Positions 2-10,014 of a stretch of 10,014 nucleotides of DNA are shown piece after piece. The translations under genes were made by a program, and so were the position numbers. The notes beneath the pieces were generated by a model. The model worked only from the letters and a program-made list of their open reading frames with translations. It had not been told where the DNA came from and did no database searches. This DNA is from a virus (taxonomy: Duplodnaviria > Heunggongvirae > Uroviricota > Caudoviricetes): IMG/VR virus record IMGVR_UViG_3300029107_000029, positions 1-10,014 of that record; one strand, written 5' to 3'. How positions within the stretch are numbered: position 1 is the stretch's first letter; each line of letters begins with the position of its first letter.

Positions 2-2218
2 CGCCATAATGCCGTTGAGGTGAACTGGATTGACCCGGATAACGGCTGGGAGACGGCGACAGAGCTTGTGGAGGACACGCAGGCCATTGCCCGTTACGGT
101 CGTAACGTCACGAAGATGGATGCCTTTGGCTGTACCAGCCGGGGACAGGCGCACCGCGCCGGGCTGTGGCTGATTAAAACGGAACTGCTGGAAACGCAGA
201 CCGTGGACTTCAGCGTGGGGGCGGAAGGGCTTCGCCATGTACCGGGTGATGTCATTGAAATCTGTGATGATGACTATGCGGGGATCAGCATCGGCGGGCG
301 CGTGCTGGCGGTGAACAGCCAGACCCGGACACTGACGCTCGACCGTGAAATCACGCTGCCATCCTCCGGCACCACGCTGATAAGCCTGGTTGACGGGCAG
401 GGGAATCCGGTCAGCGTGGAGGTCCAGTCCGTCACCGACGGCGTGAAGGTGAAAGTGAGCCGTGTTCCTGACGGCGTTGCTGAATACAGCGTGTGGGGGC
501 TGAAGCTGCCGACGCTGCGCCAGCGCCTGTTCCGCTGTGTGAGTATCCGTGAGAACGACGACGACACGTATGCCATCACCGCCGTGCAGCATGTACCGGA
601 AAAAGAGGCCATCGTGGATAACGGGGCGCACTTTGACGGCGACCAGAGCGGCACGATGAATGGTGTCACGCCGCCAGCGGTGCAGCACCTGACTGCCGAA
701 GTCACCGCAGACAGCGGGGAATATCAGGTGCTGGCGCGATGGGACACGCCGAAGGTGGTGAAGGGCGTGAGCTTCCTGCTCCGTCTGACCGTGACAGCGG
801 ATGACGGCAGTGAGCGGCTGGTCAGCACTGCCAGGACGACGGAAACCACATACCGCTTCACACAACTGGCGTTGGGGAACTACAGGCTGACAGTCCGGGC
901 GGTAAATGCGTGGGGGCAGCAGGGCGATCCGGCATCGGTATCGTTCCGGATTGCCGCACCGGCAGCACCGTCGAGGATTGATCTGACGCCGGGCTATTTT
1001 CAGATAACCGCAACGCCGCATCTTGCCGTTTATGACCCGACGGTACAGTTTGAATTCTGGTTCTCGGAAAAGCGGATTGCGGATATCAGGCAGGTTGAAA
1101 CCACAGCCCGCTATCTTGGCACGGCGCTGTACTGGATAGCTGCCAGTATCAATATTAAGCCGGGCCATGATTATTATTTTTATATCCGCAGTGTGAATAC
1201 TGTTGGCAAATCGGCATTCGTGGAGGCTGTCGGTCAGGCGAGCGATGATGCTTCCGGCTATCTGGATTTTTTCAAAGGCCAGATAACTGAATCCCATCTC
1301 GGCAAGGAGCTGCTGGAAAAAGTCGAGCTGACGGAGGATAACGCCAGCAAACTGGAGGAGTTTTCGAAAGAGTGGAAAGATGCCAACGATAAATGGAATG
1401 CCATGTGGGGCGTCAAAATTGAGCAGACCGAAGACGGCAGGCATTATGTCGCGGGGCTTGGCCTCAGCATGGAGGATACGGAGGAAGGTAAACTGAGCCA
1501 GTTCCTAGTTGCCGCTAACCGTATCGCGTTTATTGACCCGGCAAACGGGAATGAAACGCCGATGTTTGTGGCGCAGGGCAACCAGATATTCATGAACGAA
1601 GTGTTCCTGAAGTATCTGACGGCGCCAACCATTACCAGCGGCGGTAATCCTCCGGTATTTTCCCTGACACCGGACGGGCGGCTGACGGCGAAAAATGCCG
1701 ATATCAGCGGTAACGTGAATGCGAACTCCGGGACGCTCAACAATGTCACGATTAACCAGAACTGTCGGATTCTGGGAAAACTGTCTGCCAACCAGATTGA
1801 AGGTGATATTGTCAAAACGGTGGGAAAAGCCTTTCCGAGAAATGGCAGTTATGCCAGCGGTACAATAACGGTCACTGTGTACGATGACCAGGCTTTTGAC
1901 CGTCAGATAGTAATCCCACCCGTTCTGTTTCGCGGTGGTAAGCATGAAAACTTCAACAGCAACAACCAACAGTCATACTGGTATTCAACCTGTAAGCTGC
2001 AGGTGTTGAAGAACGGACAGGAAATCTTTCAGCAACCCGCGACGGATGTCAGCAGGGTATTTTCATCAGTCATTGATATGCCTGCCGGACACGGCCATGT
2101 CACCCTGACTTTCAATGTTTCTTCATATGGTGCTAATAACTGGACGCCAACGACCAGTATCAGCGACCTTCTTGTTGTTGTGATGAAGAAATCTACAGCT
2201 GGTATCAGTATCAGTTGA
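2..2218 (+). CDS. J: Tail tip / host-specificity protein J (lambda gpJ family), 3' portion; the 5' end lies upstream of the window
   Basis: The reading frame is open from the window edge (frame 2, no stop before 2216-2218); the GTG at 20 is only the first in-frame start-like codon, not the true start. The translation matches my recollection of lambda gpJ over long stretches (e.g. ...[30 protein letters not shown]..., ...[25 protein letters not shown]..., ...[35 protein letters not shown]...). The last ~150 residues diverge from what I recall of lambda J. Confidence 0.9.
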
Positions 2219-2236: not shown

Positions 2237-2261
2237 GGGCGCCAGAAATGGCGCCTTTTTT
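2237..2261 (+). terminator. Putative rho-independent terminator downstream of J
   Basis: GC-rich hairpin gggcgcc (2237-2243) / ggcgcc (2250-2255) with a 6-nt loop agaaat, followed directly by a run of six T (2256-2261). Confidence 0.5.
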
Positions 2262-2285: not shown

Positions 2286-2885
2286 ATGCGTAAATTATGT
2301 GCTGTTATTCTGTCTGCAGTAGTCTGGCTGGTCGCCGCTGGTACGCCAGCGAGTGCAGCAGAGCATCAGTCCACACTAAGCGGCGGGTATCTTCAGTCCC
2401 ATACTGATATGCCCGGAAACGATGACCTGAAGGGCATTAACGTGAAATACCGTTATGAATTTACGGACACGCTGGGGCTGGTGACGTCATTCAGCTATGC
2501 AGGAAACAAGAATCGCCAGATTACCCGTTACAGCGATACCCGCTGGCATGAAGATTCAGCGCATAACCGCTGGTTCAGCGTGATGGCGGGGCCGTCTGTA
2601 CGCGTGAATGAATGGTTCAGTGCTTATGCGATGGCGGGTGTGGCTTACAGTCGTGTTTCGACGTTCTCCGGGGATTATCTCCGCGTAACTGACAACAAGG
2701 GGAAAACGCACGATGTGCTGACCGGAAGTGATGGCGGTCGCCACAGCAACACGTCTCTGGCGTGGGGGGCTGGCGTGCAGTTTAACCCGACCGAATCCGT
2801 GGCCATTGACCTTGCTTATGAAGGTTCCGGCAGTGGCGACTGGCGCACTGACGGTTTCATCGTTGGTGTCGGTTATAAATTCTGA
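2286..2885 (+). CDS. lom: Lom outer-membrane beta-barrel protein (Ail/Lom/PagC/Rck family), 199 aa
   Basis: ATG at 2286 preceded by GAGG (2277-2280). N-terminal signal peptide ending ...TPASA/AEHQ. Strong similarity to recalled lambda Lom, especially the C-terminus ...[23 protein letters not shown] and [14 protein letters not shown]. Position directly after J is as in lambda. Confidence 0.9.
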
Positions 2886-2949: not shown

Positions 2950-5307
2950 ATGGCAGCAGTAAAAATCTCAGGTGTGCTGAAAGATGGTGCGGGAAAACCA
3001 ATACAGAACTGCACTATTCAACTGAAGGCAAAGCGTAACAGCACCACGGTACTGGTGAACACGGTGGCCTCTGAAAATCCGGATGAAGCCGGGCGTTACA
3101 GCATGGATGTTGAGTATGGCCAGTACAGCGTCATCCTGCTGGTTGAAGGTTTTCCGCCTTCACATGCCGGGACCATTACCGTCTATGAAGGCTCCAGACC
3201 AGGTACGCTGAATGATTTTCTCGGCGCCATGACGGAAGATGATGTCATGCCGGAGGCATTGCGTCGTTTTGAGGAAATGGTGGAAGAAGCGGCACGCAAC
3301 GCTGAAGCCGCCTCTCAGAGCGCAGCGGCGGCAAAGAAATCCGAAACTGCAGCGGCATCATCGAAGAACGCGGCGAAAACCTCAGAAACGAATGCAGCTA
3401 ACAGCGCACAGGCGGCAGCGGCCTCGCAGACTGCATCGGCAAATTCCGCGACAGCAGCTAAAAAATCAGAAACCAACGCGAAAAATAGCGAGACAGCAGC
3501 AAAGACGAGCGAAACCAACGCAAAGTCCAGCCAGACGGCAGCGAAAACCAGCGAAACGAATGCTAAAGCCAGTGAAACTGCGGCGAAAAATAGCCAGAAT
3601 GCAGCAGCCGAAAGCGAGAGCGCGGCAGCCGGTTCTGCGACTTCAGCAGCTGGATCAGCAACTGCTGCGGCTAACAGCCAGAAAGCAGCGAAGACGAGCG
3701 AAACTAACGCAAAGTCCAGCCAGACGGCAGCGAAGACCAGCGAAACGAATGCCAAAGCCAGCGAAACTGCGGCGAAAAACAGTCAGGATGCAGCAGCCCA
3801 AAGCGAGAGTGCCGCAGCTGGTTCTGCAACAGCGGCAGCTAATAGCCAAAAAGCTGCAAAAACCAGTGAAACTAACGCAAAGACGAGTGAAACAAAAGCA
3901 GCAGCCAGCGAGACAGAAGCAACGTCAGCCGCAACAAGAGCAGAGAATGCAGCCCGGATTGCAGAAGATGCCGCTGATCCTGCTTCTGTCCCTCCGCTTC
4001 CTGATATCTGGCTACCCTTGAATGATTCTCTGGAAGCGATAACAGGGTATGCGCCGGGCTATAAAACAATAACCATCGGCAGTGATGAAATAACAATGCC
4101 TGTTAATGGCATATGCCAATTTAGCCGGGCTTCATCAGCAACGTATATTGATAAGTCCGGGCATATTACCGTAGCAGGTAATAACGTTCCTCGTTTTGAA
4201 AAATATGGTTTGCTGATAGAGAATCAGCGAACAAACATGTTCGTAAATAGTTTTAATCCTGATGCCTGGAATAAAAGCGGTGGTATATCTGTAACATCAT
4301 CAACAGATGAATTTGAGTTTAAATATGGACGTTTCACAGTAGGAAGCGATATAGCAGGAACGACAACAGGGAGAAATATATGCACAGTTGCTGGTAATAA
4401 AGGCATAGATGTGACTGGCGATGATCAGTACAGTAAAGGTCCGTATGTTACCGCGTCGTTCAGGGTAAGAAGTGATCTCAATGTTCGCGCACGTATCCGT
4501 TTTGAACGGTATAACTCGGAAGGATACACTTTCCTTTGTGACGCCTATTTGTCATTACAGACTCATGAACTACAAATTACGGGTGGTAATGCCCAGCTAT
4601 TAACAGCAAACTTTGAAATCGACCCTGGTAGTGGATGGATATATTTTCAGGCAACACTGAAATGTCTGCCAGAATGGGGAATGGTTGGTACGCAGCTGCA
4701 AATTGCAGCCGACAGAGCTGTGGGGTCTTTTGCAACAGGTGACTGGATAGAAGTAACCACCCCGCAATTCGAGTATGGTGCTTGTGCAACTTCCTTTATC
4801 ATAACGACAACAGAGCCAGCGACTCGTGCATCAGATTTATGTAAATTTCCGCTGATGAAAAATATGTATACCATGCCTTTTACGTTCATGGTGGAAGTCC
4901 ATAAAAACTGGTTTATTTCTCATAATGCTGCACCGCGTGTCATTGATTCAGAAAATCACCAGTCCGGAGGCCCATTTATTATGGGGTTTGGTTCTTCTGG
5001 AACTATCAGTCAGGATGGTTATTCGTATTGCGATATAGGCGGGGCTAACCGGCGTGTATATGAGTCATGCGGAGTAAGAGATCTCGTTATGGGATTCAGG
5101 GTTAAGGCTGACGGCATGACATGTTCATTTGCAAATAAGAATATAAGCACTGAAACCAAAACAGTATGGAAATATATTCGTGAAGCAGCCGTGATTCGTA
5201 TCGGGGGGCAAACGACGACAGGATTACGACACCTTAATGGTCATATAAAAAACCTCCGTTTCTGGAACAGAGCATTGTCAGATACGCAGCTTAAGGAATA
5301 CGTATAA
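2950..5307 (+). CDS. stf: Side tail fibre protein (Stf-like), 785 aa: lambda-like N-terminus and Ala/Ser/Thr/Lys-rich repeat shaft, with a non-lambda C-terminal half ending in a LamG/concanavalin-A-like signature
   Basis: Preferred start is ATG 2950 with GGAG at 2941-2944 (5-nt spacer); the GTG at 2944 in the ORF track has no Shine-Dalgarno. N-terminus MAVKISGVLKDGAGKPIQNCTIQLKAKRNSTTV...GRYSMDVEYGQYSVIL...FPPSHAGTITVYE matches recalled lambda Stf. The C-terminal ~450 aa do not resemble lambda Stf; the extreme C-terminus GLRHLNGHIKNLRFWNRALSDTQLKEY fits the characteristic end of LamG_3/concanavalin-like lectin domains (...G.ID.vRiynRALSaeEI...). Confidence 0.85.
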   Translation: MAAVKISGVLKDGAGKPIQNCTIQLKAKRNSTTVLVNTVASENPDEAGRYSMDVEYGQYSVILLVEGFPPSHAGTITVYEGSRPGTLNDFLGAMTEDDVMPEALRRFEEMVEEAARNAEAASQSAAAAKKSETAAASSKNAAKTSETNAANSAQAAAASQTASANSATAAKKSETNAKNSETAAKTSETNAKSSQTAAKTSETNAKASETAAKNSQNAAAESESAAAGSATSAAGSATAAANSQKAAKTSETNAKSSQTAAKTSETNAKASETAAKNSQDAAAQSESAAAGSATAAANSQKAAKTSETNAKTSETKAAASETEATSAATRAENAARIAEDAADPASVPPLPDIWLPLNDSLEAITGYAPGYKTITIGSDEITMPVNGICQFSRASSATYIDKSGHITVAGNNVPRFEKYGLLIENQRTNMFVNSFNPDAWNKSGGISVTSSTDEFEFKYGRFTVGSDIAGTTTGRNICTVAGNKGIDVTGDDQYSKGPYVTASFRVRSDLNVRARIRFERYNSEGYTFLCDAYLSLQTHELQITGGNAQLLTANFEIDPGSGWIYFQATLKCLPEWGMVGTQLQIAADRAVGSFATGDWIEVTTPQFEYGACATSFIITTTEPATRASDLCKFPLMKNMYTMPFTFMVEVHKNWFISHNAAPRVIDSENHQSGGPFIMGFGSSGTISQDGYSYCDIGGANRRVYESCGVRDLVMGFRVKADGMTCSFANKNISTETKTVWKYIREAAVIRIGGQTTTGLRHLNGHIKNLRFWNRALSDTQLKEYV
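3499..3900 (+). repeat. In-frame tandem repeats inside stf (units of 189 bp and 168 bp, about 90% identical, plus a partial third unit), nested in a shorter SETNAK-type periodicity
   Basis: Direct sequence comparison: accaacgcaaagtccagccagacggcagcgaa at 3514 recurs as actaacgcaaagtccagccagacggcagcgaa at 3703 (offset 189 bp = 63 codons) and partially at 3871 (offset 168 bp = 56 codons). Encoded peptide AAKTSETNAKSSQTAAKTSETNAKASETAAKNSQ[N/D]AAA[E/Q]SESAAAGSAT... is repeated. Confidence 0.85.
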
Positions 5308-5576
5308 TGCGGGATATAACATTACGATTCGATAACAGAGAACAGTTTAACGCAATTGTATATGACAGTGGCCTGTTCAGTCTTGAAGAAGAAAATGGGG
5401 TTCTTGTTGATGTTATTGGCTGCATTATTGATTACGAGGAACCAGAAAACGAAAGATGTACAGGCATTGATCGCGGTGGTTTTTTCGTAAACATGAGGAT
5501 TGTTGATGGCAGTAAAAACATATCTTCTTTAATGCCTTTCATTACGACAGATCAGCATGTAAGGACATGGGCTTAA
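5307..5576 (+). CDS. Hypothetical acidic protein, 89 aa, translationally coupled to stf; function unknown (candidate cognate fibre chaperone by position only)
   Basis: Its ATG (5307-5309) overlaps the stf stop TAA (5305-5307) in a TAATG arrangement. No recognisable motif. ORF is intact and co-oriented within a tight operon. Confidence 0.55.
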   Translation: MRDITLRFDNREQFNAIVYDSGLFSLEEENGVLVDVIGCIIDYEEPENERCTGIDRGGFFVNMRIVDGSKNISSLMPFITTDQHVRTWA

Positions 5577-5588
5577 TGGAGTAAGACA

Positions 5589-6293
5589 ATGGTTACAAAA
5601 ACAGTAATTCCAGGAGACATCACCACGTTAAAGGGAGATGTCAGTAAAGCCAAGGAAGATATTTCCTCAATTAACGTAAAAGTATCAACGCTTCAGGCTG
5701 ATATGACCAGTGCAAAGCAGGATATCAGCTCCAGATACACAAAAACTGAAGTTGATAATAAGCTGAAAAACAAACTGGAAGTGAACGATCTGGAAAGTGG
5801 TCGTTATGGTGGAGATTTTTACCCGCTGACTGGCCGTGAAGCGTTTTATTTATGGGGGTTGGGCACGACTACTGCGGCGGCAAACCTTTATCTTAATCCT
5901 GACCCCGCAATTTCGTCTGTGCTGCGGTCAACATCGTCTATCCGCTATAAACATTCAGTAGAGACGATAGATTCGGAGCACGCCGATCTCATTTTCAAGA
6001 TGCGCCCTGTATGGTACAGGTCGCAATGCGAAAATGACAGGCGCGATTGGGGATTCTATGGATTGATTGCCGAGGAAGTAGGAGAAATTGCCCCTCAGTT
6101 TGTTCACTGGCGACCAGCTAACGAAGATGATGCACCGGAAACCATTTCCAGCAATGGCCTTGTTGCCGAAGGTGTAATGTACGAACGTCTGGTTGTTCCA
6201 CTGATTCACCATATCCAGAAGCTGACTGAAAGAGTTGATGAACTTGAGTCAGAATTAAAGTTGTTATTAACTTCCCGAAGCGATATTGGATAA
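5589..6293 (+). CDS. Tail-fibre-like protein, 234 aa: N-terminal coiled-coil-like repeats plus C-terminal peptidase S74 / intramolecular chaperone-like domain
   Basis: ATG 5589 with GGAG at 5578-5581. N-terminal repeats ITTLKGDVSKAKEDISSINVKVSTLQADMTSAKQDISS. C-terminal segment SSIRYK...LIFKMRPVWYR...GLIAEEVGEIAPQFV...GVMYERLVVPLIHHIQKLTERVDELESELKLL fits the recalled S74 'chaperone of endosialidase' pattern (S-x4-K, klrPvtYr, GfIAQEv..P..v, vdY..lv.lli.AiqeL). Confidence 0.7.
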   Translation: MVTKTVIPGDITTLKGDVSKAKEDISSINVKVSTLQADMTSAKQDISSRYTKTEVDNKLKNKLEVNDLESGRYGGDFYPLTGREAFYLWGLGTTTAAANLYLNPDPAISSVLRSTSSIRYKHSVETIDSEHADLIFKMRPVWYRSQCENDRRDWGFYGLIAEEVGEIAPQFVHWRPANEDDAPETISSNGLVAEGVMYERLVVPLIHHIQKLTERVDELESELKLLLTSRSDIG

Positions 6294-6303
6294 AGGAGGA
6301 GTA

Positions 6304-6597
6304 ATGGATATAACACCTTTCCTTCACGCGCTTTGTGCTGTGGCTGCGCAGGTACTGGTTGGTCTTTTTACCGGGAACTGGGCTTACGGAGCGATAGCCG
6401 GTTGTACGTTCTTCATTGCGCGTGAACACACCCAGGCAGAATATCGCTGGATTGAAATGTTCGGGCATGGCAAGCGAATGAATATGCCTTGGTGGGGCGG
6501 TTTTGATCCACGTGCATGGGATGTGGCAAGCCTGATGGATTTTGCTGTGCCGGTGGTGGCGTGTCTGCTGGTCTGGCTGTTGATTAATCGCGGGTGA
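6304..6597 (+). CDS. Small predicted inner-membrane protein, 98 aa, about three hydrophobic segments; function unknown
   Basis: ATG 6304 preceded by AGGAGG (6294-6299); the ORF track's TTG at 6286 overlaps the upstream stop and is less likely. Hydrophobic stretches FLHALCAVAAQVLVGLF, WAYGAIAGCTFFIA and LMDFAVPVVACLLVWLLI. No lipobox or signal-peptidase site recognised. Confidence 0.55.
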   Translation: MDITPFLHALCAVAAQVLVGLFTGNWAYGAIAGCTFFIAREHTQAEYRWIEMFGHGKRMNMPWWGGFDPRAWDVASLMDFAVPVVACLLVWLLINRG

Positions 6598-6606
6598 AAA
6601 AGGTGA

Positions 6607-6735
6607 GCTGTATATGCAACGGAGGGCGAAACCTCGTTGCTGGAAGCCTGGAAGAAGTATCGGGTGTTGCTGAACCGTGTTGATACATCAACTGCACCGG
6701 ATACTGAGTGGCCTCTCATTCCTGCAGCTAATTGA
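6607..6735 (+). pseudogene. tfa: 3' remnant of a tail fibre assembly gene (tfa-like), last ~42 codons, with no start codon
   Basis: Frame-1 translation from 6607 to the TGA at 6733-6735 gives [42 protein letters not shown], which matches my recollection of the conserved C-terminus of lambda-family Tfa (...[29 protein letters not shown]...). It is preceded by in-frame stops at 6595-6597 and 6604-6606 and has no in-frame ATG/GTG with a Shine-Dalgarno. Confidence 0.55.
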
Positions 6736-6753
6736 AAACTAGTTAATTATATT

Positions 6754-6788
6754 CCGCAGCAAATTATACTGGTAATATGCTGCGGTTT
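6754..6788. terminator. Hairpin between the convergent tail-fibre operon and diguanylate cyclase gene; possible weak terminator
   Basis: Inverted repeat ccgcagca (6754-6761) / tgctgcgg (6778-6785) with a 16-nt AT-rich loop, followed on the + strand by ttt. The loop is long and the T-run short, so confidence is low. Confidence 0.3.
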
Positions 6789-6829
6789 AATGATCAGTAA
6801 GTATAATATCGTCTGTTGCCACTAAATAG

Positions 6830-8173
6830 CTATGATAGCTCGCTATGTATGATTACCTTGTTTCTGCCAGTTCTTTTGGCTTCATATAGCGATTCATCTG
6901 CTTGAGCCAAGATTTCTGAAGGCATGAGTTTATTTGAAAGAGTGATGAACCCACCTATGCTGATAGTGACTCTTTCAACCCCATATTTAACAGTAAGATT
7001 TTGTGTTTTCACTTCAACATTCCTTCTTATTCTTTCGCTGATTGCTGAGATCTGAGAAAATGAAAGATCATTGAATACAATGGCGAATTCTTCCCCTCCA
7101 AGTCGGCCGAATAAATCTTTGTTCCTGATTGTCTTTGCAATAATCTTTGTTACTGTGCTTATTACTATATCTCCAGTGTGATGTCCATGCTGGTCATTTA
7201 TCTTCTTGAAGTGATCAATGTCGAGCATTAATACACAAATGGAATTATTATTGTTATTTTTTAATATTGTCTTGAAGGCATTTAAAAAACCACCTCTATT
7301 ATAAGTGTTAGTTAAAAAATCGTGTGATGCCAGATAATCTGAATATTTTAATTTCAAAAATATAAAATACATTAGAGTGCATATGATATATAGGCTGGAT
7401 GCTAGTTCAAACCCTTTGGCCCAATACCATATAGGATAACGTGAATCCATAAAATGCAATAATATTAAGTTATCACATGCTAGAGCAATGCTGATAAAGC
7501 TAATGCAAAACCATATTTTTGAATAATTTTTAATAAAAAAACATGAAGAAACAAGAAGTAATAGCCAGAAATAAATTATCGTCTTAATGTAGAATGTATT
7601 CCATGTCAATTGATGGCTGACGGAGGAATAGTATACTATATTAATAGAGTAGCTTTCATTCGCGCTACTTAATATTTTGGCTGTAAATGATATGAAAATA
7701 AGAATTAGTATGGCAAATAGTATTGTGAATGTATTTTTTCTATTTGCACAAGTGTAAATTTCTTTTGAATGGCTTGAAAAAATAGCAACACAGGAAATTA
7801 ACACAAAGCTTATTTGACGGAAAAAGTAAAATATTGCGACGTCATTTGCCTTCTGGATTATTAAGGATTCAGAAGATATTGGTGTTTGCACAATAATTAT
7901 TGTCTCTACAAAATAATAGAGATTGTTCAGGAATGCAATGGCTAGAATCAGCAGGCAAATTTGTTTTTGATGAGATGTATAGTATAAAAACATAAATATA
8001 CAAATCATAAGGTTTATAAAAAACAGGCCTACAATAAAGATAATATAGTTGGTTTGGGTTGTTTGTGTAAGGTATAGCCAATTTTTCTCATGTAACTGCA
8101 TGAGAAAAAATGAAACAAAGATGAATATAATGGAAAATATTTTTAAACTTACAGGTACTGTACGAGTAGTCAT
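6830..8173 (-). CDS. Membrane-anchored diguanylate cyclase, 447 aa: N-terminal ~8-TM sensor-like domain plus C-terminal GGDEF domain with GGEEF active site and RxxD I-site
   Basis: ATG at 8173 (- strand) with AGGTGG 4 nt upstream (complement of 8178-8183). C-terminal domain contains HDFLTNTYNRGGF, the I-site RNKD five residues upstream of RLGGEEF, and DESLYEAKRTGRNKV. N-terminal 270 aa has about eight hydrophobic segments. The gene is very AT-rich with Ile/Phe/Asn/Lys/Tyr-rich codon usage, unlike the flanking genes. Confidence 0.9.
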   Translation of the reverse strand: MTTRTVPVSLKIFSIIFIFVSFFLMQLHEKNWLYLTQTTQTNYIIFIVGLFFINLMICIFMFLYYTSHQKQICLLILAIAFLNNLYYFVETIIIVQTPISSESLIIQKANDVAIFYFFRQISFVLISCVAIFSSHSKEIYTCANRKNTFTILFAILILIFISFTAKILSSANESYSINIVYYSSVSHQLTWNTFYIKTIIYFWLLLLVSSCFFIKNYSKIWFCISFISIALACDNLILLHFMDSRYPIWYWAKGFELASSLYIICTLMYFIFLKLKYSDYLASHDFLTNTYNRGGFLNAFKTILKNNNNNSICVLMLDIDHFKKINDQHGHHTGDIVISTVTKIIAKTIRNKDLFGRLGGEEFAIVFNDLSFSQISAISERIRRNVEVKTQNLTVKYGVERVTISIGGFITLSNKLMPSEILAQADESLYEAKRTGRNKVIIHSELS

Positions 8174-8239
8174 GCTGCCACCTAAAAAAATGCATATTTA
8201 TTCATGTGTATCAATAAATATGTCTCAGGGTAACTTATT

Positions 8240-8285
8240 CTAAATCAGTATACCATTTGTTATAGATGCTGAAATTATCTTTTTC
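8240..8285 (-). promoter_or_regulatory. Candidate sigma70 promoter for the diguanylate cyclase gene
   Basis: On the - strand: TTTCAG, 16-nt spacer, TATACT (complement of 8247-8252), about 75 nt upstream of the start codon, in an AT-rich region. Pattern match only. Confidence 0.25.
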
Positions 8286-9173
8286 TGTAAAGATGACTTT
8301 TGAATGGTTTGCTGGTTATTAATATGCCTGCTAATTTAAGGTGTATATAGTGAATTTTGAGTGAAATTTTTAATGTGTTATTATTTGTGATGTATGTCAC
8401 AGAGCCATTTGAGGCGGTCAGTATTCATACTGATAATTAGTGTGAAATTATGCTCTGTGTATGGCATATGTAGGGGAAGAGCAGACTTCGATTGTACCTA
8501 TTTGCGGTGAATCCGATATCTTTTATTGCGTTGTTGGTCATGTCATGTTGAACTCGATTTAGATTTTTTAGCCGAACTAACAAGCCTGCAGACATCTGAC
8601 ATTTTTTGTTAGAGCGTACTATTTTGATGCGAAGTCATGTAACTTTGTTTCAGGCTGAAAAAGGGTTTAAATTGGGGGAAGTCCAGCTTGGCTCTGGCTC
8701 GATCTCACTCCTCCTTTACTTCTCCATTCAGACCAGGCATCGCAAATTCACTGCATGAAGATGAGCGATTTTTATATATTGTGAAGTAAGCGTTTTTTCC
8801 TAGAGCGGTTGGCCAGGGCAATACATCTTGGGTTTCCCTGATTCGTACCGCTTATGCTTCGGAGATAAGGGGATATGTGCTCTGTGAACCTAACGGGGAT
8901 GGTACAGCCAGCATCATCGATTTCAGCCCGGTAAAAGAGACGAGGAAAAATGCACAACAGGCACCACACGTTATGCATGGATTCGAATTGCTCATAATTC
9001 ACCAGCACAGCTTTAAATCGTAAAGAGAACCACGCTACGCTGTATGCGAGAATGTATTGTGGTTGGCTGGTGAAATTCCGTTAGTGGATTTACAGCCGGA
9101 ACTGATTCTCTGGGAAAGAAATCATGGGCCAACTCACAGGCCACAGAATGAGAATTCTTAGAATTTTTTCGGT

Positions 9174-9213
9174 GGCAAAAATGGGGCAAAACGCTGCAAA
9201 AGGGGCAAAAAAA
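9174..9213. repeat. Four phased GCAAAA A-tracts at helical periodicity (possible intrinsic bend or clustered protein-binding sites)
   Basis: GCAAAA begins at 9175, 9186, 9196 and 9205 (spacings 11, 10, 9 bp): ggcaaaaatggggcaaaacgctgcaaaaggggcaaaaaaag. Adjacent 8-bp palindrome AGAATTCT at 9151-9158. Confidence 0.5.
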
Positions 9214-9506
9214 GAGTGGATTATCGTAGCTTATTGTTGTCGCTGATGATATTTAACACATTGAAAAATAAGTAAAATACTTATGAGTCAGAGAGTTGTG
9301 ATTTTTGCCCTTACTTGTTCAGGTTGTATTGTTCTTTCTTACTAATTTCTTGATTTTGCAACATTTAATAGTAGCTCAATTCATTATATGGCATCAGAAG
9401 AGTATGCATCATGCCGGGATATCCGACAGCAGAAGTCTGATATAAAAACAGTGGCGTGTATGGTACGGATTAGAGGGGAAAATGTCAGCACATTTGCGAA
9501 ATGAAT

Positions 9507-9532
9507 CAAAAAGCCCGCAGCGACGTGCGGGC
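9507..9532 (-). terminator. Rho-independent terminator of the universal stress protein gene
   Basis: Read on the - strand: gcccgca-cgtcgc-tgcgggc followed by TTTTT (complement of 9508-9512), beginning 9 nt downstream of the stop codon. Confidence 0.65.
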
Positions 9533-9540
9533 GTTAGTTA

Positions 9541-10014
<474 letters not shown>

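What the first reader, a model, noticed from the sequence alone, without database searches (positions are those of the whole stretch)
2950..6735. Tail-fibre locus has a mosaic cassette in place of the ancestral stf 3' end and tfa
stf keeps a lambda-like N-terminus and repeat shaft up to about nt 3970, then switches to an unrelated C-terminal half. Three small genes follow in a tight operon (TAATG overlap, then 12-nt and 10-nt gaps), and directly after them lies the last ~42 codons of a tfa-like gene with no start codon. Reading left to right this is ancestral stf 5' end, foreign receptor-binding module plus accessory genes, then ancestral tfa 3' end. That is the footprint of a module exchange with breakpoints inside stf and inside tfa. 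The canonical Tfa chaperone is therefore probably absent, and the cassette genes presumably supply fibre folding or assembly, or some other function linked to adsorption.
Basis: partly seen in the sequence, partly recalled or inferred. Interest (0 to 1): 0.65.

Follow-up and report, generated by a model that had tools for sequence, protein, structure and literature searches.

The report
Mosaic side-tail-fibre locus with tfa scar
This prophage carries a common, Tfa-independent type of side tail fibre locus (a sugar-binding fibre, a small partner protein, a mini second fibre with a built-in chaperone, and a conserved membrane protein) followed by a dead stub of the old tfa chaperone gene; the pattern is real, but it is widespread and inherited, not a special event in this phage.

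Summary
Three tightly packed genes follow, then the last ~40 codons of tfa (6607-6735; 95% DNA identity to lambda tfa).

The "cassette" is at least three independently reassorting modules:
- stf 3' end plus ORF2;
- the ORF3 body;
- ORF4 plus the tfa stub.

The ORF4/tfa-stub junction is a single old scar, present in 1724 of 5426 complete E. coli genomes behind many stf alleles. Classical phage 21 has stf-ORF2-ORF4.

The Stf C-module is homologous to the capsule-binding RcGTA head-spike fibre, and an ORF2-like ~90-aa gene followed it in all 67 loci examined, virulent T1-, T5- and Seuratvirus-like phages included. ORF3 is a 234-aa distal fibre. It has the conserved N-terminal motif of IrisVonRoten gp24-type distal fibres and an intact Peptidase_S74 intramolecular chaperone (Ser116/Lys121). 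ORF4 is a very conserved membrane protein of unknown function found beside receptor-binding genes in sipho-, podo- and myo-type prophages. No full tfa accompanies this fibre type.

Verdict: an ordinary new member of a known mosaic kind. The uncharacterised ORF2 and ORF4 families are the only points of real interest.

The parts
20..2218 (+). C-terminal 732 aa of tail-tip protein J. It is lambda-like up to ~1752; the last 154 aa are the phage 21-type receptor-binding end.
   Evidence: blastn to lambda J gives 93% for 1-1752 only. tblastn of 1754-2215 is 99.4% identical to phage 21 J.
2286..2885 (+). lom (Ail/Lom outer-membrane protein), a moron bracketed by terminator-like hairpins.
   Evidence: Pfam Ail_Lom, E 1.8e-119. 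Hairpins at 2237-2256 and 2912-2933.
2950..4102 (+). stf module A: lambda-type N-terminal tail-attachment domain, an Ala/Ser/Thr/Lys-rich repeat shaft, and the start of a conserved joint (PLPDIWLPLNDSLEAITGY...).
   Evidence: Pfam phage_tail_N at residues 5-134. 58.6% identity to lambda orf-401. Tandem repeats with 21-, 42- and 189-nt periods. 87-89% identical to 2G7b and PhiR49_1 up to 4102.
4103..5307 (+). stf module B: ~400-aa lectin-like C-terminal module. It comprises an RcGTA head-spike-fibre-like domain and a second beta domain ending ...IRIGGQTTTGLRHLNGHIKNLRFW.
   Evidence: NCBIfam GTA_spike_fiber at residues 424-629, E 2.1e-12. A family profile matches PDB 6tb9 Rcc01080 at E 9.3e-15. 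phrog_5939 covers 387-785. Homologues of 36-50% identity occur in four phage groups.
5307..5576 (+). ORF2: 89-aa soluble alpha+beta protein (phrog_1361), the obligate downstream partner of the StfC module, translationally coupled to stf.
   Evidence: TAATG overlap. phrog_1361, E 1.9e-30. 375 clusters, no Pfam family. A StfC-like module lies directly upstream in 57/57 IMG/VR loci and 10/10 phages. AF2 pLDDT 67 with no informative fold match.
5589..6293 (+). ORF3: 234-aa mini distal fibre. It has a conserved N-terminal motif MVTKTVIPGDITTLKGD, a coiled coil, a short tip, and a Peptidase_S74 intramolecular chaperone with the Ser116/Lys121 dyad.
   Evidence: Pfam Peptidase_S74 at 116-172, E 3.9e-6. 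PDB 8hqz L-shaped tail fibre, E 1.4e-6. phrog_3299 C-terminus and phrog_4563 N-terminus. N-terminal motif shared with IrisVonRoten gp24, SLUR29 and others. SSIRYK motif at residue 116.
6304..6597 (+). ORF4: 97-aa three-helix membrane protein (phrog_1443) with the invariant motif AREHTQAEYRW..FG.GKR.NMPWWGGFD.R.W. Function unknown.
   Evidence: phrog_1443, E 4.5e-59. 583 clusters at 57-68% identity in Aeromonas, Comamonas and Leclercia. AF2 pLDDT 95. No fold or family match.
6607..6735 (+). tfa 3' stub: part of the conserved C-terminal helical domain of Tfa. It has no start codon and is a decaying pseudogene fragment.
   Evidence: Caudo_TAP positions 95-130/131, E 1.3e-14. 95% DNA identity to lambda tfa. 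86% aa identity to Tfa 156-191. One shared junction, W->L/R substitutions and a frameshift among copies.

Best explanation
The window holds the right end of a lambda/phage-21-like prophage. Its side-tail-fibre locus belongs to a widespread type that does not use Tfa and builds a two-part fibre.

Proposed working of each part:
- Stf is the proximal fibre. It has a lambda-type N-terminal anchor, a repeat shaft and a conserved joint. It ends in a lectin-like module homologous to the capsule-binding RcGTA head-spike fibre, so it most likely binds a surface polysaccharide (O-antigen or capsule) as a reversible first receptor.
- ORF2 is translationally coupled to stf and always follows this module. 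It is most likely a fibre assembly or stabilising partner.
- ORF3 is a minimal distal fibre. Its conserved N-terminal motif docks it on the proximal fibre. Its C-terminal S74 domain acts as an intramolecular chaperone, trimerises the protein, and then cleaves itself off at Ser116. Tfa is therefore dispensable.
- ORF4 is a conserved inner-membrane protein that travels with receptor-binding genes in temperate phages. The best guess is an envelope-level exclusion or conversion function, not fibre folding.
- The tfa stub is a non-functional scar from an old replacement of a stf-tfa pair. It is inherited by a large clade and passively serves as a right-hand homology arm.

The present allele combination arose through repeated homologous exchanges at four joints: about 4102, 5580-5650, 6284 and 6584-6714.

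Shown here: anatomy, homologies, synteny, modular reassortment, and the age and decay of the stub.
Inferred: glycan binding, ORF3 docking and autocleavage, and the roles of ORF2 and ORF4.
For: Anatomy and homology:
- Domain and structure matches.
- The RcGTA head-spike fibre binds capsular polysaccharide experimentally (PMC10218006).

Synteny:
- StfC and ORF2 are adjacent in 57/57 IMG/VR loci, in 79/80 ORF4 loci and in all 10 annotated phages examined. These include virulent Drexlerviridae, Seuratvirus and Tequintavirus phages.
- No Tfa N-terminal part occurs in any of these loci.

Two-part fibre:
- For IrisVonRoten, the BASEL-2 paper models gp22 (50% identical C-module) as a proximal fibre with a protruding galectin-like domain. 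It models gp24 (same N-terminal motif as ORF3, with an IMC) as the distal fibre attached to it (PMC11990801).
- The S74 Ser/Lys dyad is conserved in ORF3.

Modular reassortment:
- Pairwise mosaic map.
- The identical StfC+ORF2 allele occurs with the 234-aa ORF3, with the 346-aa ORF3, or with ORF3 deleted.
- The 234-aa ORF3 occurs behind at least four StfC types.

tfa stub:
- One junction sequence is shared by all 47 copies, with W->L/R substitutions in the EAWKKYR motif and one frameshift.
- The junction is present in 1724/5426 genomes.
- Lambda x Rac crossovers were mapped experimentally in the 95%-identical tfa region (PMC3945230).
- The Tfa C-terminal domain is the conserved one (PMC9608196 citing North 2019).

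ORF4:
- It is absent from the virulent phages that share StfC-ORF2-ORF3.
- It lies after a tailspike, behind a terminator and a promoter-like site and next to int, in P22-like phage Gally.
- It lies after tfa in phiHAP-1, after gpJ in a Comamonas prophage, and alone in an Aeromonas chromosome.
Against: - No experiment or multimer model was run here, so ORF3 docking, S74 cleavage and glycan binding are inferences by homology.
- ORF2 does not co-vary allele for allele with StfC. 2G7b and PhiR49_1 have ORF2 98% identical but StfC only 53%. 2G7b and VogelGryff have StfC 80% identical but ORF2 only 42%. It is therefore not an allele-specific chaperone. Its fold model is only moderately confident and matches nothing informative.
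- Mature ORF3 would be only ~115 aa, which is very small for a receptor-binding fibre.
- In most non-E. coli loci, ORF4 overlaps or abuts the upstream fibre gene (gaps of -11 to +40 nt). No promoter-like site precedes it in this window. Both points fit late co-expression with the fibre better than a classic moron.
- Partial ORF4 homologues also occur in jumbo Aeromonas phages.
Confidence: 0.72

Rival explanations
1. One reading: in this prophage lineage, a single illegitimate or homologous replacement swapped the ancestral stf 3' end and most of tfa for one foreign block (StfC+ORF2+ORF3+ORF4). That block travels as a unit.
For: - The left-to-right order (lambda-like stf 5' end, unrelated genes, tfa 3' end) is what such an event leaves.
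- GC drops from 0.56 to 0.40 at ~4000.
- The whole 4-kb arrangement is found as one piece in 41 genomes at three or more chromosomal sites.
- Some such event must have created the ORF4|tfa junction once.
Against: - The block is not a unit. ORF3 alleles, StfC alleles and ORF4+stub reassort independently.
- The junction is shared by about a third of E. coli genomes behind many stf types.
- Phage 21 and Lambda_2E9 lack ORF3.
- PhiR55_1 lacks the stub.
- SLUR29 lacks both ORF4 and the stub.
Confidence: 0.12
2. ORF2, ORF3 and ORF4 together replace Tfa: they are trans-acting chaperones or assembly factors for the new Stf C-terminus and are not virion or membrane-function proteins.
For: - The genes are tightly packed and translationally coupled directly after stf.
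- ORF3 contains a domain that Pfam names 'Chaperone of endosialidase'.
- BASEL annotators called the ORF3-like gene of VogelGryff a 'putative lateral tail fiber chaperone'.
- No tfa accompanies this fibre type.
Against: - S74 domains are intramolecular: they fold the protein they belong to and are then cleaved off (PMC4728585; PMC11990801).
- ORF3 is optional: 34 of 80 ORF4 loci, and phage 21, lack it.
- ORF4 occurs with unrelated receptor-binding proteins (tailspike, P2-type fibres, gpJ) and alone in a chromosome. It is missing from the virulent phages with the same fibre.
Confidence: 0.1
3. ORF4 is a fibre- or infection-associated late protein, for example a membrane factor acting with S74-terminated fibres or a holin-like protein, and not a lysogen-benefit gene.
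For: - ORF4 directly abuts or overlaps the stop of S74-terminated fibre genes in P2/HP1-like prophages of Aeromonas and Leclercia.
- 15 of 48 diverse upstream genes carry Peptidase_S74.
- 45 of 80 E. coli loci have an S74 ORF3 just upstream.
- Gaps are mostly -11 to +40 nt.
- No promoter-like site lies upstream in the window.
- 2 of 81 family members give weak Phage_holin_8 hits.
Against: - It is present without any S74 gene in phage 21-type loci, in phiHAP-1 and in P22-like Gally, where a terminator separates it from the tailspike.
- It is absent from virulent phages with S74 distal fibres.
- Lambdoid phages already carry their own holin elsewhere.
- No endolysin was recognised next to it in the Comamonas or Aeromonas phage contexts.
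Confidence: 0.3
4. The tfa stub is retained because it is functional: either it is translated as a ~33-aa peptide from TTG 6637 that supplies the conserved Tfa trimerisation helix, or it is a selected recombination or regulatory element.
For: - It is retained in 43 of 45 loci with downstream sequence.
- A GGAGGG lies 10 nt upstream of an in-frame TTG.
- The conserved C-terminal Tfa domain is the part proposed to drive trimerisation.
- Different 3' alleles of the stub match different tfa lineages, so it still recombines.
- Crossovers in this region have been shown experimentally.
Against: - Copies carry substitutions of the invariant Trp (W->L, W->R), an L->R change and a 1-nt deletion.
- The frame relative to ORF4 differs between copies because the A-run is 5 or 6 nt long.
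- PhiR55_1, PhiR11_1 and PhiR40_1 are isolated phages that lack the stub.
- The stub covers only ~40 aa of the domain.
Confidence: 0.07

Closest known systems
Side-tail-fibre locus of classical lambdoid phage 21 (OL657228) and 'Lambda_2E9'-type phages
   Same: - Lambda-type stf N-terminus, StfC-family C-module, ORF2-like 92-aa gene with overlapping start, and a 97-aa ORF4 that is 96% identical.
- J C-terminus 99.4% identical.
- Lambda_2E9's match runs past ORF4 into the stub, to window 6672.
   Different: - Those loci have no ORF3.
- Their StfC and ORF2 alleles are only ~39% and ~34% identical to the window's.
Escherichia phages PhiR55_1, PhiR11_1 and PhiR49_1 (induced ECOR prophages, INPHARED)
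   Same: - PhiR55_1 has the same four genes at 93-99% aa identity.
- PhiR11_1 has the same Stf and ORF2.
- PhiR49_1 has the same ORF3, ORF4 and stub.
   Different: - PhiR55_1 and PhiR11_1 lack the tfa stub; int follows ORF4.
- PhiR11_1 has the 346-aa ORF3 allele.
- PhiR49_1 has other StfC and ORF2 alleles.
Branched lateral fibre of T5-like phage IrisVonRoten (Bas32) gp22-gp23-gp24 (PMC11990801), and LtfA/LtfB of DT57C (PMC4728585)
   Same: - Gene order is proximal fibre with a lectin/galectin-like C-module (50% identical), then a 92-aa ORF2 homologue, then a distal fibre. The distal fibre starts MVTKTVIPxDITxLK and ends in an S74 intramolecular chaperone.
   Different: - The tail anchor is T5-type, not lambda phage_tail_N.
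- gp24 is 574 aa with two receptor-binding domains, whereas ORF3 is 234 aa.
- DT57C has no ORF2-like gene mentioned.
- These phages are virulent and have no ORF4 and no tfa stub.
Lambda Ur stf-tfa pair (and Rac, Qin and e14 stf-tfa)
   Same: - N-terminal ~270 aa of Stf (58.6% identity).
- The last ~36 aa of Tfa are retained as a stub (86% identity).
- Position after J-lom.
   Different: - The lambda Stf C-terminus (orf-314) and the fibre-binding N-domain of Tfa are absent.
- Assembly here is expected to be Tfa-independent.
RcGTA head-spike fibre Rcc01080 (PDB 6tb9)
   Same: - Sequence homology of the first StfC domain (profile E 9.3e-15 over ~240 residues).
- Lectin-like beta fold.
- Experimentally binds capsular polysaccharide.
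   Different: - It is a head decoration of a gene transfer agent, anchored by its N-terminal 10 residues to a capsid spike base. It is not the end of a trimeric tail fibre.
Receptor-adjacent conversion or exclusion genes: cor (phi80/N15), llp (T5), fun/Z (P2), gtrABC/oac (P22/Sf6)
   Same: - ORF4 occupies the same genomic slots: after stf, after P2-type H/G, and between tailspike and int.
   Different: - There is no sequence or fold similarity to any of them.
- ORF4 is far more conserved across hosts than receptor-specific blockers are.
- No function has been tested. The roles of the named genes are recalled from general knowledge, not tested here.

Membership tests
Lambda-type side tail fibre (Stf) | N-terminal 'prophage tail fibre N-terminal' domain (PF08400), encoded after J-lom | tested here: met
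   PF08400 at residues 5-134, E 5.9e-67. Gene order J-lom-stf. 58.6% identity to lambda orf-401.
Lambda-type side tail fibre (Stf) | Lambda/T4 gp37-like C-terminal receptor-binding tip that needs Tfa | tested here: not met
   No similarity to lambda orf-314. The C-module belongs to phrog_5939 / GTA_spike_fiber.
Tail fibre assembly protein Tfa (PF02413 Caudo_TAP) | Full-length protein: variable fibre-binding N-domain plus conserved C-terminal helical domain, with a start codon | tested here: not met
   Only profile positions 95-130 of 131 are present. There is no start, and stops lie upstream. No TfaN hit in 137 related loci.
Peptidase_S74 intramolecular chaperone fibres (T5 pb1, K1F endosialidase, DT57C LtfA/B) | C-terminal S74 domain with the Ser-x4-Lys catalytic dyad at the cleavage site | tested here: met
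   PF13884 at residues 116-172, E 3.9e-6. SSIRYK motif with Ser116/Lys121 aligns with SDxRxK of relatives. 8hqz match, E 1.4e-6.
Peptidase_S74 intramolecular chaperone fibres | Autoproteolytic release of the chaperone and trimeric mature fibre in the virion | not testable with these tools
   Needs protein expression or virion mass spectrometry.
Two-part (proximal + distal) lateral fibre, IrisVonRoten type | Proximal fibre with lectin-like C-module, followed by a distal fibre carrying the TVIPxDIxxLK N-terminus | tested here: met
   StfC is 50% identical to gp22's C-module. The ORF3 N-terminus matches gp24's. Gene order is identical.
Two-part (proximal + distal) lateral fibre, IrisVonRoten type | Physical docking of the distal fibre on the proximal fibre | not testable with these tools
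   Docking is only modelled by AlphaFold-Multimer in PMC11990801. No multimer tool is available here.
RcGTA head-spike-fibre domain (NF048003) | Sequence match above the curated cut-off | tested here: met
   47.9 bits against a cut-off of 36. Profile against 6tb9, E 9.3e-15.
Moron / lysogenic-conversion gene (for ORF4) | Own promoter and terminator; expressed from the prophage; confers a host phenotype | tested here: inconclusive
   A terminator plus a promoter-like site lies upstream in P22-like Gally. None is seen in the window, and in most loci the gene abuts the upstream fibre gene. Expression and phenotype were not tested.
Known anti-phage defence or exclusion families (PADLOC), holins (Pfam) | Profile match for ORF2, ORF3 or ORF4 | tested here: not met
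   No PADLOC hit. Only 2 of 81 ORF4 members give weak Phage_holin_8 hits.

The most novel reading that the evidence does not exclude
ORF4 (phrog_1443) represents an undescribed, unusually conserved family of small inner-membrane proteins. Members are 57-68% identical from E. coli lambdoids to Aeromonas, Leclercia and Comamonas prophages, and share the invariant AREHTQAEYRW...NMPWWGGFD loop. Temperate phages of all three tail morphotypes place it directly behind their receptor-binding genes. The most novel reading is that it acts on a conserved envelope target, giving superinfection exclusion or protecting progeny. In parallel, ORF2 (phrog_1361) would be a new class of partner or chaperone for lectin-type lateral fibres, replacing Tfa.
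Probability: 0.3. Interest if true: 0.55.

Novelty: new member of a known kind. Interest (0 to 1): 0.3.

Why it matters
Tail-fibre mosaicism and leftover tfa fragments are textbook features of lambdoid phages, so the locus itself changes nothing.

Its value is practical:
- It gives a clean map of the exchange joints (about 4102, 5580-5650, 6284 and 6584-6714) and of the interchangeable parts of a very common E. coli prophage fibre system. This is useful for host-range prediction and for engineering lambda-based particles.
- It flags two abundant, uncharacterised protein families whose genomic behaviour suggests direct roles in adsorption or exclusion: ORF2 (phrog_1361) and ORF4 (phrog_1443).
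- Annotation pipelines that expect stf-tfa pairs will mis-describe this type of locus.

Tried and rejected
- A single-sequence search with ORF2 in the 5.8-billion and 1.84-billion protein sets found almost nothing: 4 and 6 hits. Two of these were spurious cadherin- or Ig-repeat proteins. A profile of phage homologues was needed.
- ORF2-4 have no PADLOC match, and ORF4 has no consistent Pfam match.
- ORF2 as an allele-specific chaperone co-evolving with StfC is rejected. Identities are decoupled in several pairs.
- ORF4 and the stub as a read-through fusion is rejected. Two stops intervene, and the relative frame differs between copies.
- ORF4 as part of a lysis cassette is rejected. No endolysin or spanin domains lie next to it in the Comamonas or Aeromonas phage contexts.
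- The genome-contig scan with StfC found nothing. The scan with the GGDEF protein returned only generic GGDEF domains, so the host species was not identified.
- A paper search for the PhiR phages and for a phage 21 genome description found nothing relevant.

Full report
**What is in the window.** The window is the right end of a lambdoid prophage followed by host DNA. The features, in order, are:
- the C-terminal 732 aa of J (20-2218);
- lom (2286-2885);
- stf (2950-5307);
- three small genes (5307-5576, 5589-6293, 6304-6597);
- a tfa fragment (6607-6735);
- a low-GC MASE4-GGDEF gene on the minus strand (6830-8173);
- a ykgJ-like remnant;
- uspF (9541-9975, minus strand).

**Check of the observation.**
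- The stf stop overlaps the ORF2 start (TAATG). The next two gaps are 12 and 10 nt, and Shine-Dalgarno sequences precede ORF3 and ORF4.
- Stf residues 5-134 are the Pfam 'prophage tail fibre N-terminal' domain (E 5.9e-67).
- Residues 3-273 are 58.6% identical to lambda orf-401. Nothing matches lambda orf-314, the C-terminal part of lambda Stf.
- The shaft is built of 21- and 42-nt repeats with a 189-nt higher-order duplication.
- GC drops from 0.56 to 0.40 at about 4000.
- The fragment at 6607-6735 matches positions 95-130 of the 131-position Caudo_TAP model (E 1.3e-14). It is 86% identical to lambda Tfa residues 156-191 and 95% identical in DNA to the lambda tfa 3' end.
- The fragment has no start codon. 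NCBI's pipeline annotates the same fragment in relatives as an incomplete tail fibre assembly gene.

**The cassette is several modules, not one.** Pairwise comparison with sequenced phages shows four blocks that assort independently.
- Module A is the stf 5' part up to ~4102 (codon ~385). It is shared at 87-89% with phages 2G7b and PhiR49_1, whose downstream parts differ.
- Module B is the stf 3' part plus ORF2 and the first ~60 nt of ORF3 (4103-5648). It is 97.6% identical in PhiR11_1, which then carries a different, 346-aa ORF3.
- Module C is the ORF3 body. It is shared at 94% with PhiR49_1, which has other StfC and ORF2 alleles.
- Module D is ORF4 plus the tfa stub. It is 94-95% identical in many phages with yet other stf types.

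In 57 IMG/VR loci found through ORF2, the identical StfC+ORF2 allele occurs with the 234-aa ORF3, with the 346-aa ORF3, or with ORF3 deleted to 38 codons. The stub is sometimes present and sometimes absent. In 80 loci found through ORF4, 79 have StfC+ORF2 upstream, 28 have the 234-aa ORF3, 17 have the 346-aa allele and 34 have none. The 234-aa ORF3 sits behind at least four StfC types.

The complete arrangement of this window is rare: 41 of 5426 complete E. coli genomes, at three or more chromosomal sites.

The ORF4|stub junction, by contrast, is in 1724 of those genomes.

**The tfa stub is an old, decaying scar.**
- All 47 copies that I could read share one identical 5' junction, so the truncation happened once.
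- Copies carry replacements of the invariant Trp of the EAWKKYR motif, an L->R change and a 1-nt deletion. The A-run before the stub is 5 or 6 nt long, so there is no protein-level constraint.
- The 3' part of the stub exists in alternative versions that match different tfa lineages, and homology ends at 6584, 6672 or 6714 in different phages. The stub is therefore still used as a crossover site.
- That fits published work. The C-terminal domain of Tfa is the conserved one and the N-terminal domain binds the fibre (PMC9608196 citing North et al. 2019). Lambda x Rac recombinants were mapped in the 95%-identical tfa region (PMC3945230).
- Isolated phages PhiR55_1, PhiR11_1 and PhiR40_1 lack the stub altogether.

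**The Stf C-terminal module.**
- Residues ~385-785 belong to a family with 36-50% identical members at the ends of lateral fibres. These occur in lambdoid phages, in the virulent Drexlerviridae phage SLUR29, in the Seuratvirus VogelGryff and in the T5-like IrisVonRoten.
- The module starts with a strongly conserved joint (PLPD[IV]W[IL]P.NDSL....G..P.YK), where the exchange breakpoints fall.
- It continues with a variable beta domain that reaches the NCBIfam 'GTA spike fiber' cut-off. A family profile matches the RcGTA head-spike fibre Rcc01080 at E 9.3e-15.
- That protein is lectin-like and binds capsular polysaccharide experimentally (PMC10218006).
- For IrisVonRoten, the BASEL-2 study models the homologous gp22 as a proximal fibre with a protruding galectin-like domain (PMC11990801).
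- I infer that Stf here binds a surface glycan as a reversible first receptor. J, which carries a phage 21-type tip (99.4% identical), would bind the terminal receptor.

**ORF2.**
- The 89-aa protein (phrog_1361) has no Pfam, NCBIfam or PADLOC family. A profile search finds 375 clusters, all labelled hypothetical.
- It follows a StfC-type module, within 0-14 nt, in 57 of 57 IMG/VR loci and in all ten annotated phages, virulent ones included.
- It is therefore fibre-related and not a lysogeny gene.
- It is not allele-specific: ORF2 and StfC identities are decoupled in several pairs.
- My best guess is a general assembly or stabilising partner of the conserved parts of the module. This is inference only.

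**ORF3.**
- The 234-aa protein has a Peptidase_S74 'chaperone of endosialidase' domain and resembles the end of a solved L-shaped tail fibre (8hqz).
- Its SSIRYK motif aligns with SDxRxK of relatives, which gives the catalytic pair Ser116/Lys121.
- Its first ~17 residues (MVTKTVIPGDITTLKGD) are shared with otherwise different proteins: the 346-aa lambdoid allele, the SLUR29 245-aa protein and IrisVonRoten gp24. gp24 is modelled as the distal fibre docked on gp22.
- ORF3 is therefore best read as a minimal distal fibre that folds with its own intramolecular chaperone. This explains why the locus needs no Tfa.
- It is optional, being absent from phage 21-type loci. The mature part would be only ~115 aa.

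**ORF4.**
- The 97-aa protein (phrog_1443) has three predicted helices (AF2 pLDDT 95) and a nearly invariant motif, AREHTQAEYRW..FG.GKR.NMPWWGGFD.R.W.
- There are 583 clusters, with 57-68% identity to members from Aeromonas, Leclercia, Citrobacter and Comamonas.
- It has no family, defence-system or fold match.
- It is missing from the virulent phages that share StfC-ORF2-ORF3.
- It recurs directly behind receptor-binding genes of temperate phages:
  - after stf genes in lambdoids, including phage 21;
  - after the tailspike and next to int in P22-like Gally, behind a strong terminator and a promoter-like site;
  - after tfa in P2-like phiHAP-1;
  - abutting S74-terminated fibres in P2/HP1-like prophages of Aeromonas and Leclercia;
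  - after gpJ in a Comamonas prophage.
- It also occurs alone in an Aeromonas chromosome.
- Of 48 diverse upstream genes, 15 carry S74.
- These slots are those used by known conversion or exclusion genes (recalled knowledge: cor, fun/Z, gtr/oac). I therefore favour an envelope-level exclusion or conversion role at about 0.4.
- Frequent start/stop overlap with the fibre gene and the lack of a promoter-like site in the window keep a late, fibre-linked role alive at about 0.3.

**Verdict.**
- The locus is an ordinary member of a widespread, already sequenced and partly annotated type of lambdoid fibre locus. It is the phage 21 layout plus an optional distal fibre, produced by repeated homologous exchange. 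The tfa stub is inherited.
- Novelty is low: a new member of a known kind. The uncharacterised ORF2 and ORF4 families are the only part that merits experiments.

Noticed in passing
window 6714-10014: The host flank (ykgJ-like remnant and uspF, 8706-10014) is only ~84% identical to any of 5426 complete E. coli genomes, so the host is probably a non-coli Escherichia. The prophage sits at the uspF-side position that Rac occupies in K-12 (the K-12 position is recalled, not tested).
   Followed up: partly
window 6830-8173 (minus strand), with flanks 6714-8706: A 447-aa MASE4-GGDEF diguanylate cyclase gene lies in a 27-31% GC islet between the prophage fibre locus and the host flank. It has no match in any complete E. 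coli genome and no close relative among GTDB species representatives. It could be prophage cargo or a small island.
   Followed up: partly
window 1753-2218: There is a second receptor-module joint in the same window. J is 93% lambda-like up to ~1752, then its last 154 aa are 99.4% identical to phage 21 J. GC drops from ~0.62 to ~0.50 at this point.
   Followed up: yes
window 2237-2256 and 2912-2933: lom is bracketed by two strong terminator-like hairpins (8-bp GC-rich stems followed by T-runs), the classic moron layout.
   Followed up: no
window 6746-6787: An inverted repeat CCGCAGCA(16 nt)TGCTGCGG followed by TTT lies just after the tfa stub and may end the late transcript. A 10/12 sigma-70-like site on the minus strand (6775-6746) overlaps it and points antisense into the stub and ORF4.
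   Followed up: no
window 6595-6606; related loci L098-L237: In this window the tfa stub is in frame with ORF4, separated by TGA AAA AGG TGA. All other copies read have one more A in the run, which shifts the frame. The in-frame arrangement is therefore a coincidence of this copy.
   Followed up: yes
L155 6001-6309, L156 6001-6297, L011 8001-8303, L010 8001-8309, L015 4001-4288: ORF4 homologues (57-83% identical) directly follow S74-terminated tail fibres in P2/HP1-like prophages, gpJ in a Comamonas prophage, and a tailspike in a P22-like phage. One copy stands alone between pirin and RIO1-kinase genes in Aeromonas rivipollensis. The family has no name in Pfam, NCBIfam or PADLOC.
   Followed up: partly
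L123 and L125 (IMG/VR), 5274-5387: In two prophage contigs with the window's StfC+ORF2 allele, ORF3 is reduced to its first 38 codons, fused directly upstream of ORF4. This is a natural deletion of the distal-fibre body.
   Followed up: no
L007 6131-6429, L008 6690-6948: Phages 2G7b and PhiR49_1 carry further tfa fragments downstream of a minus-strand ybcY-like methyltransferase gene, so several generations of tfa scars can coexist in one phage.
   Followed up: no
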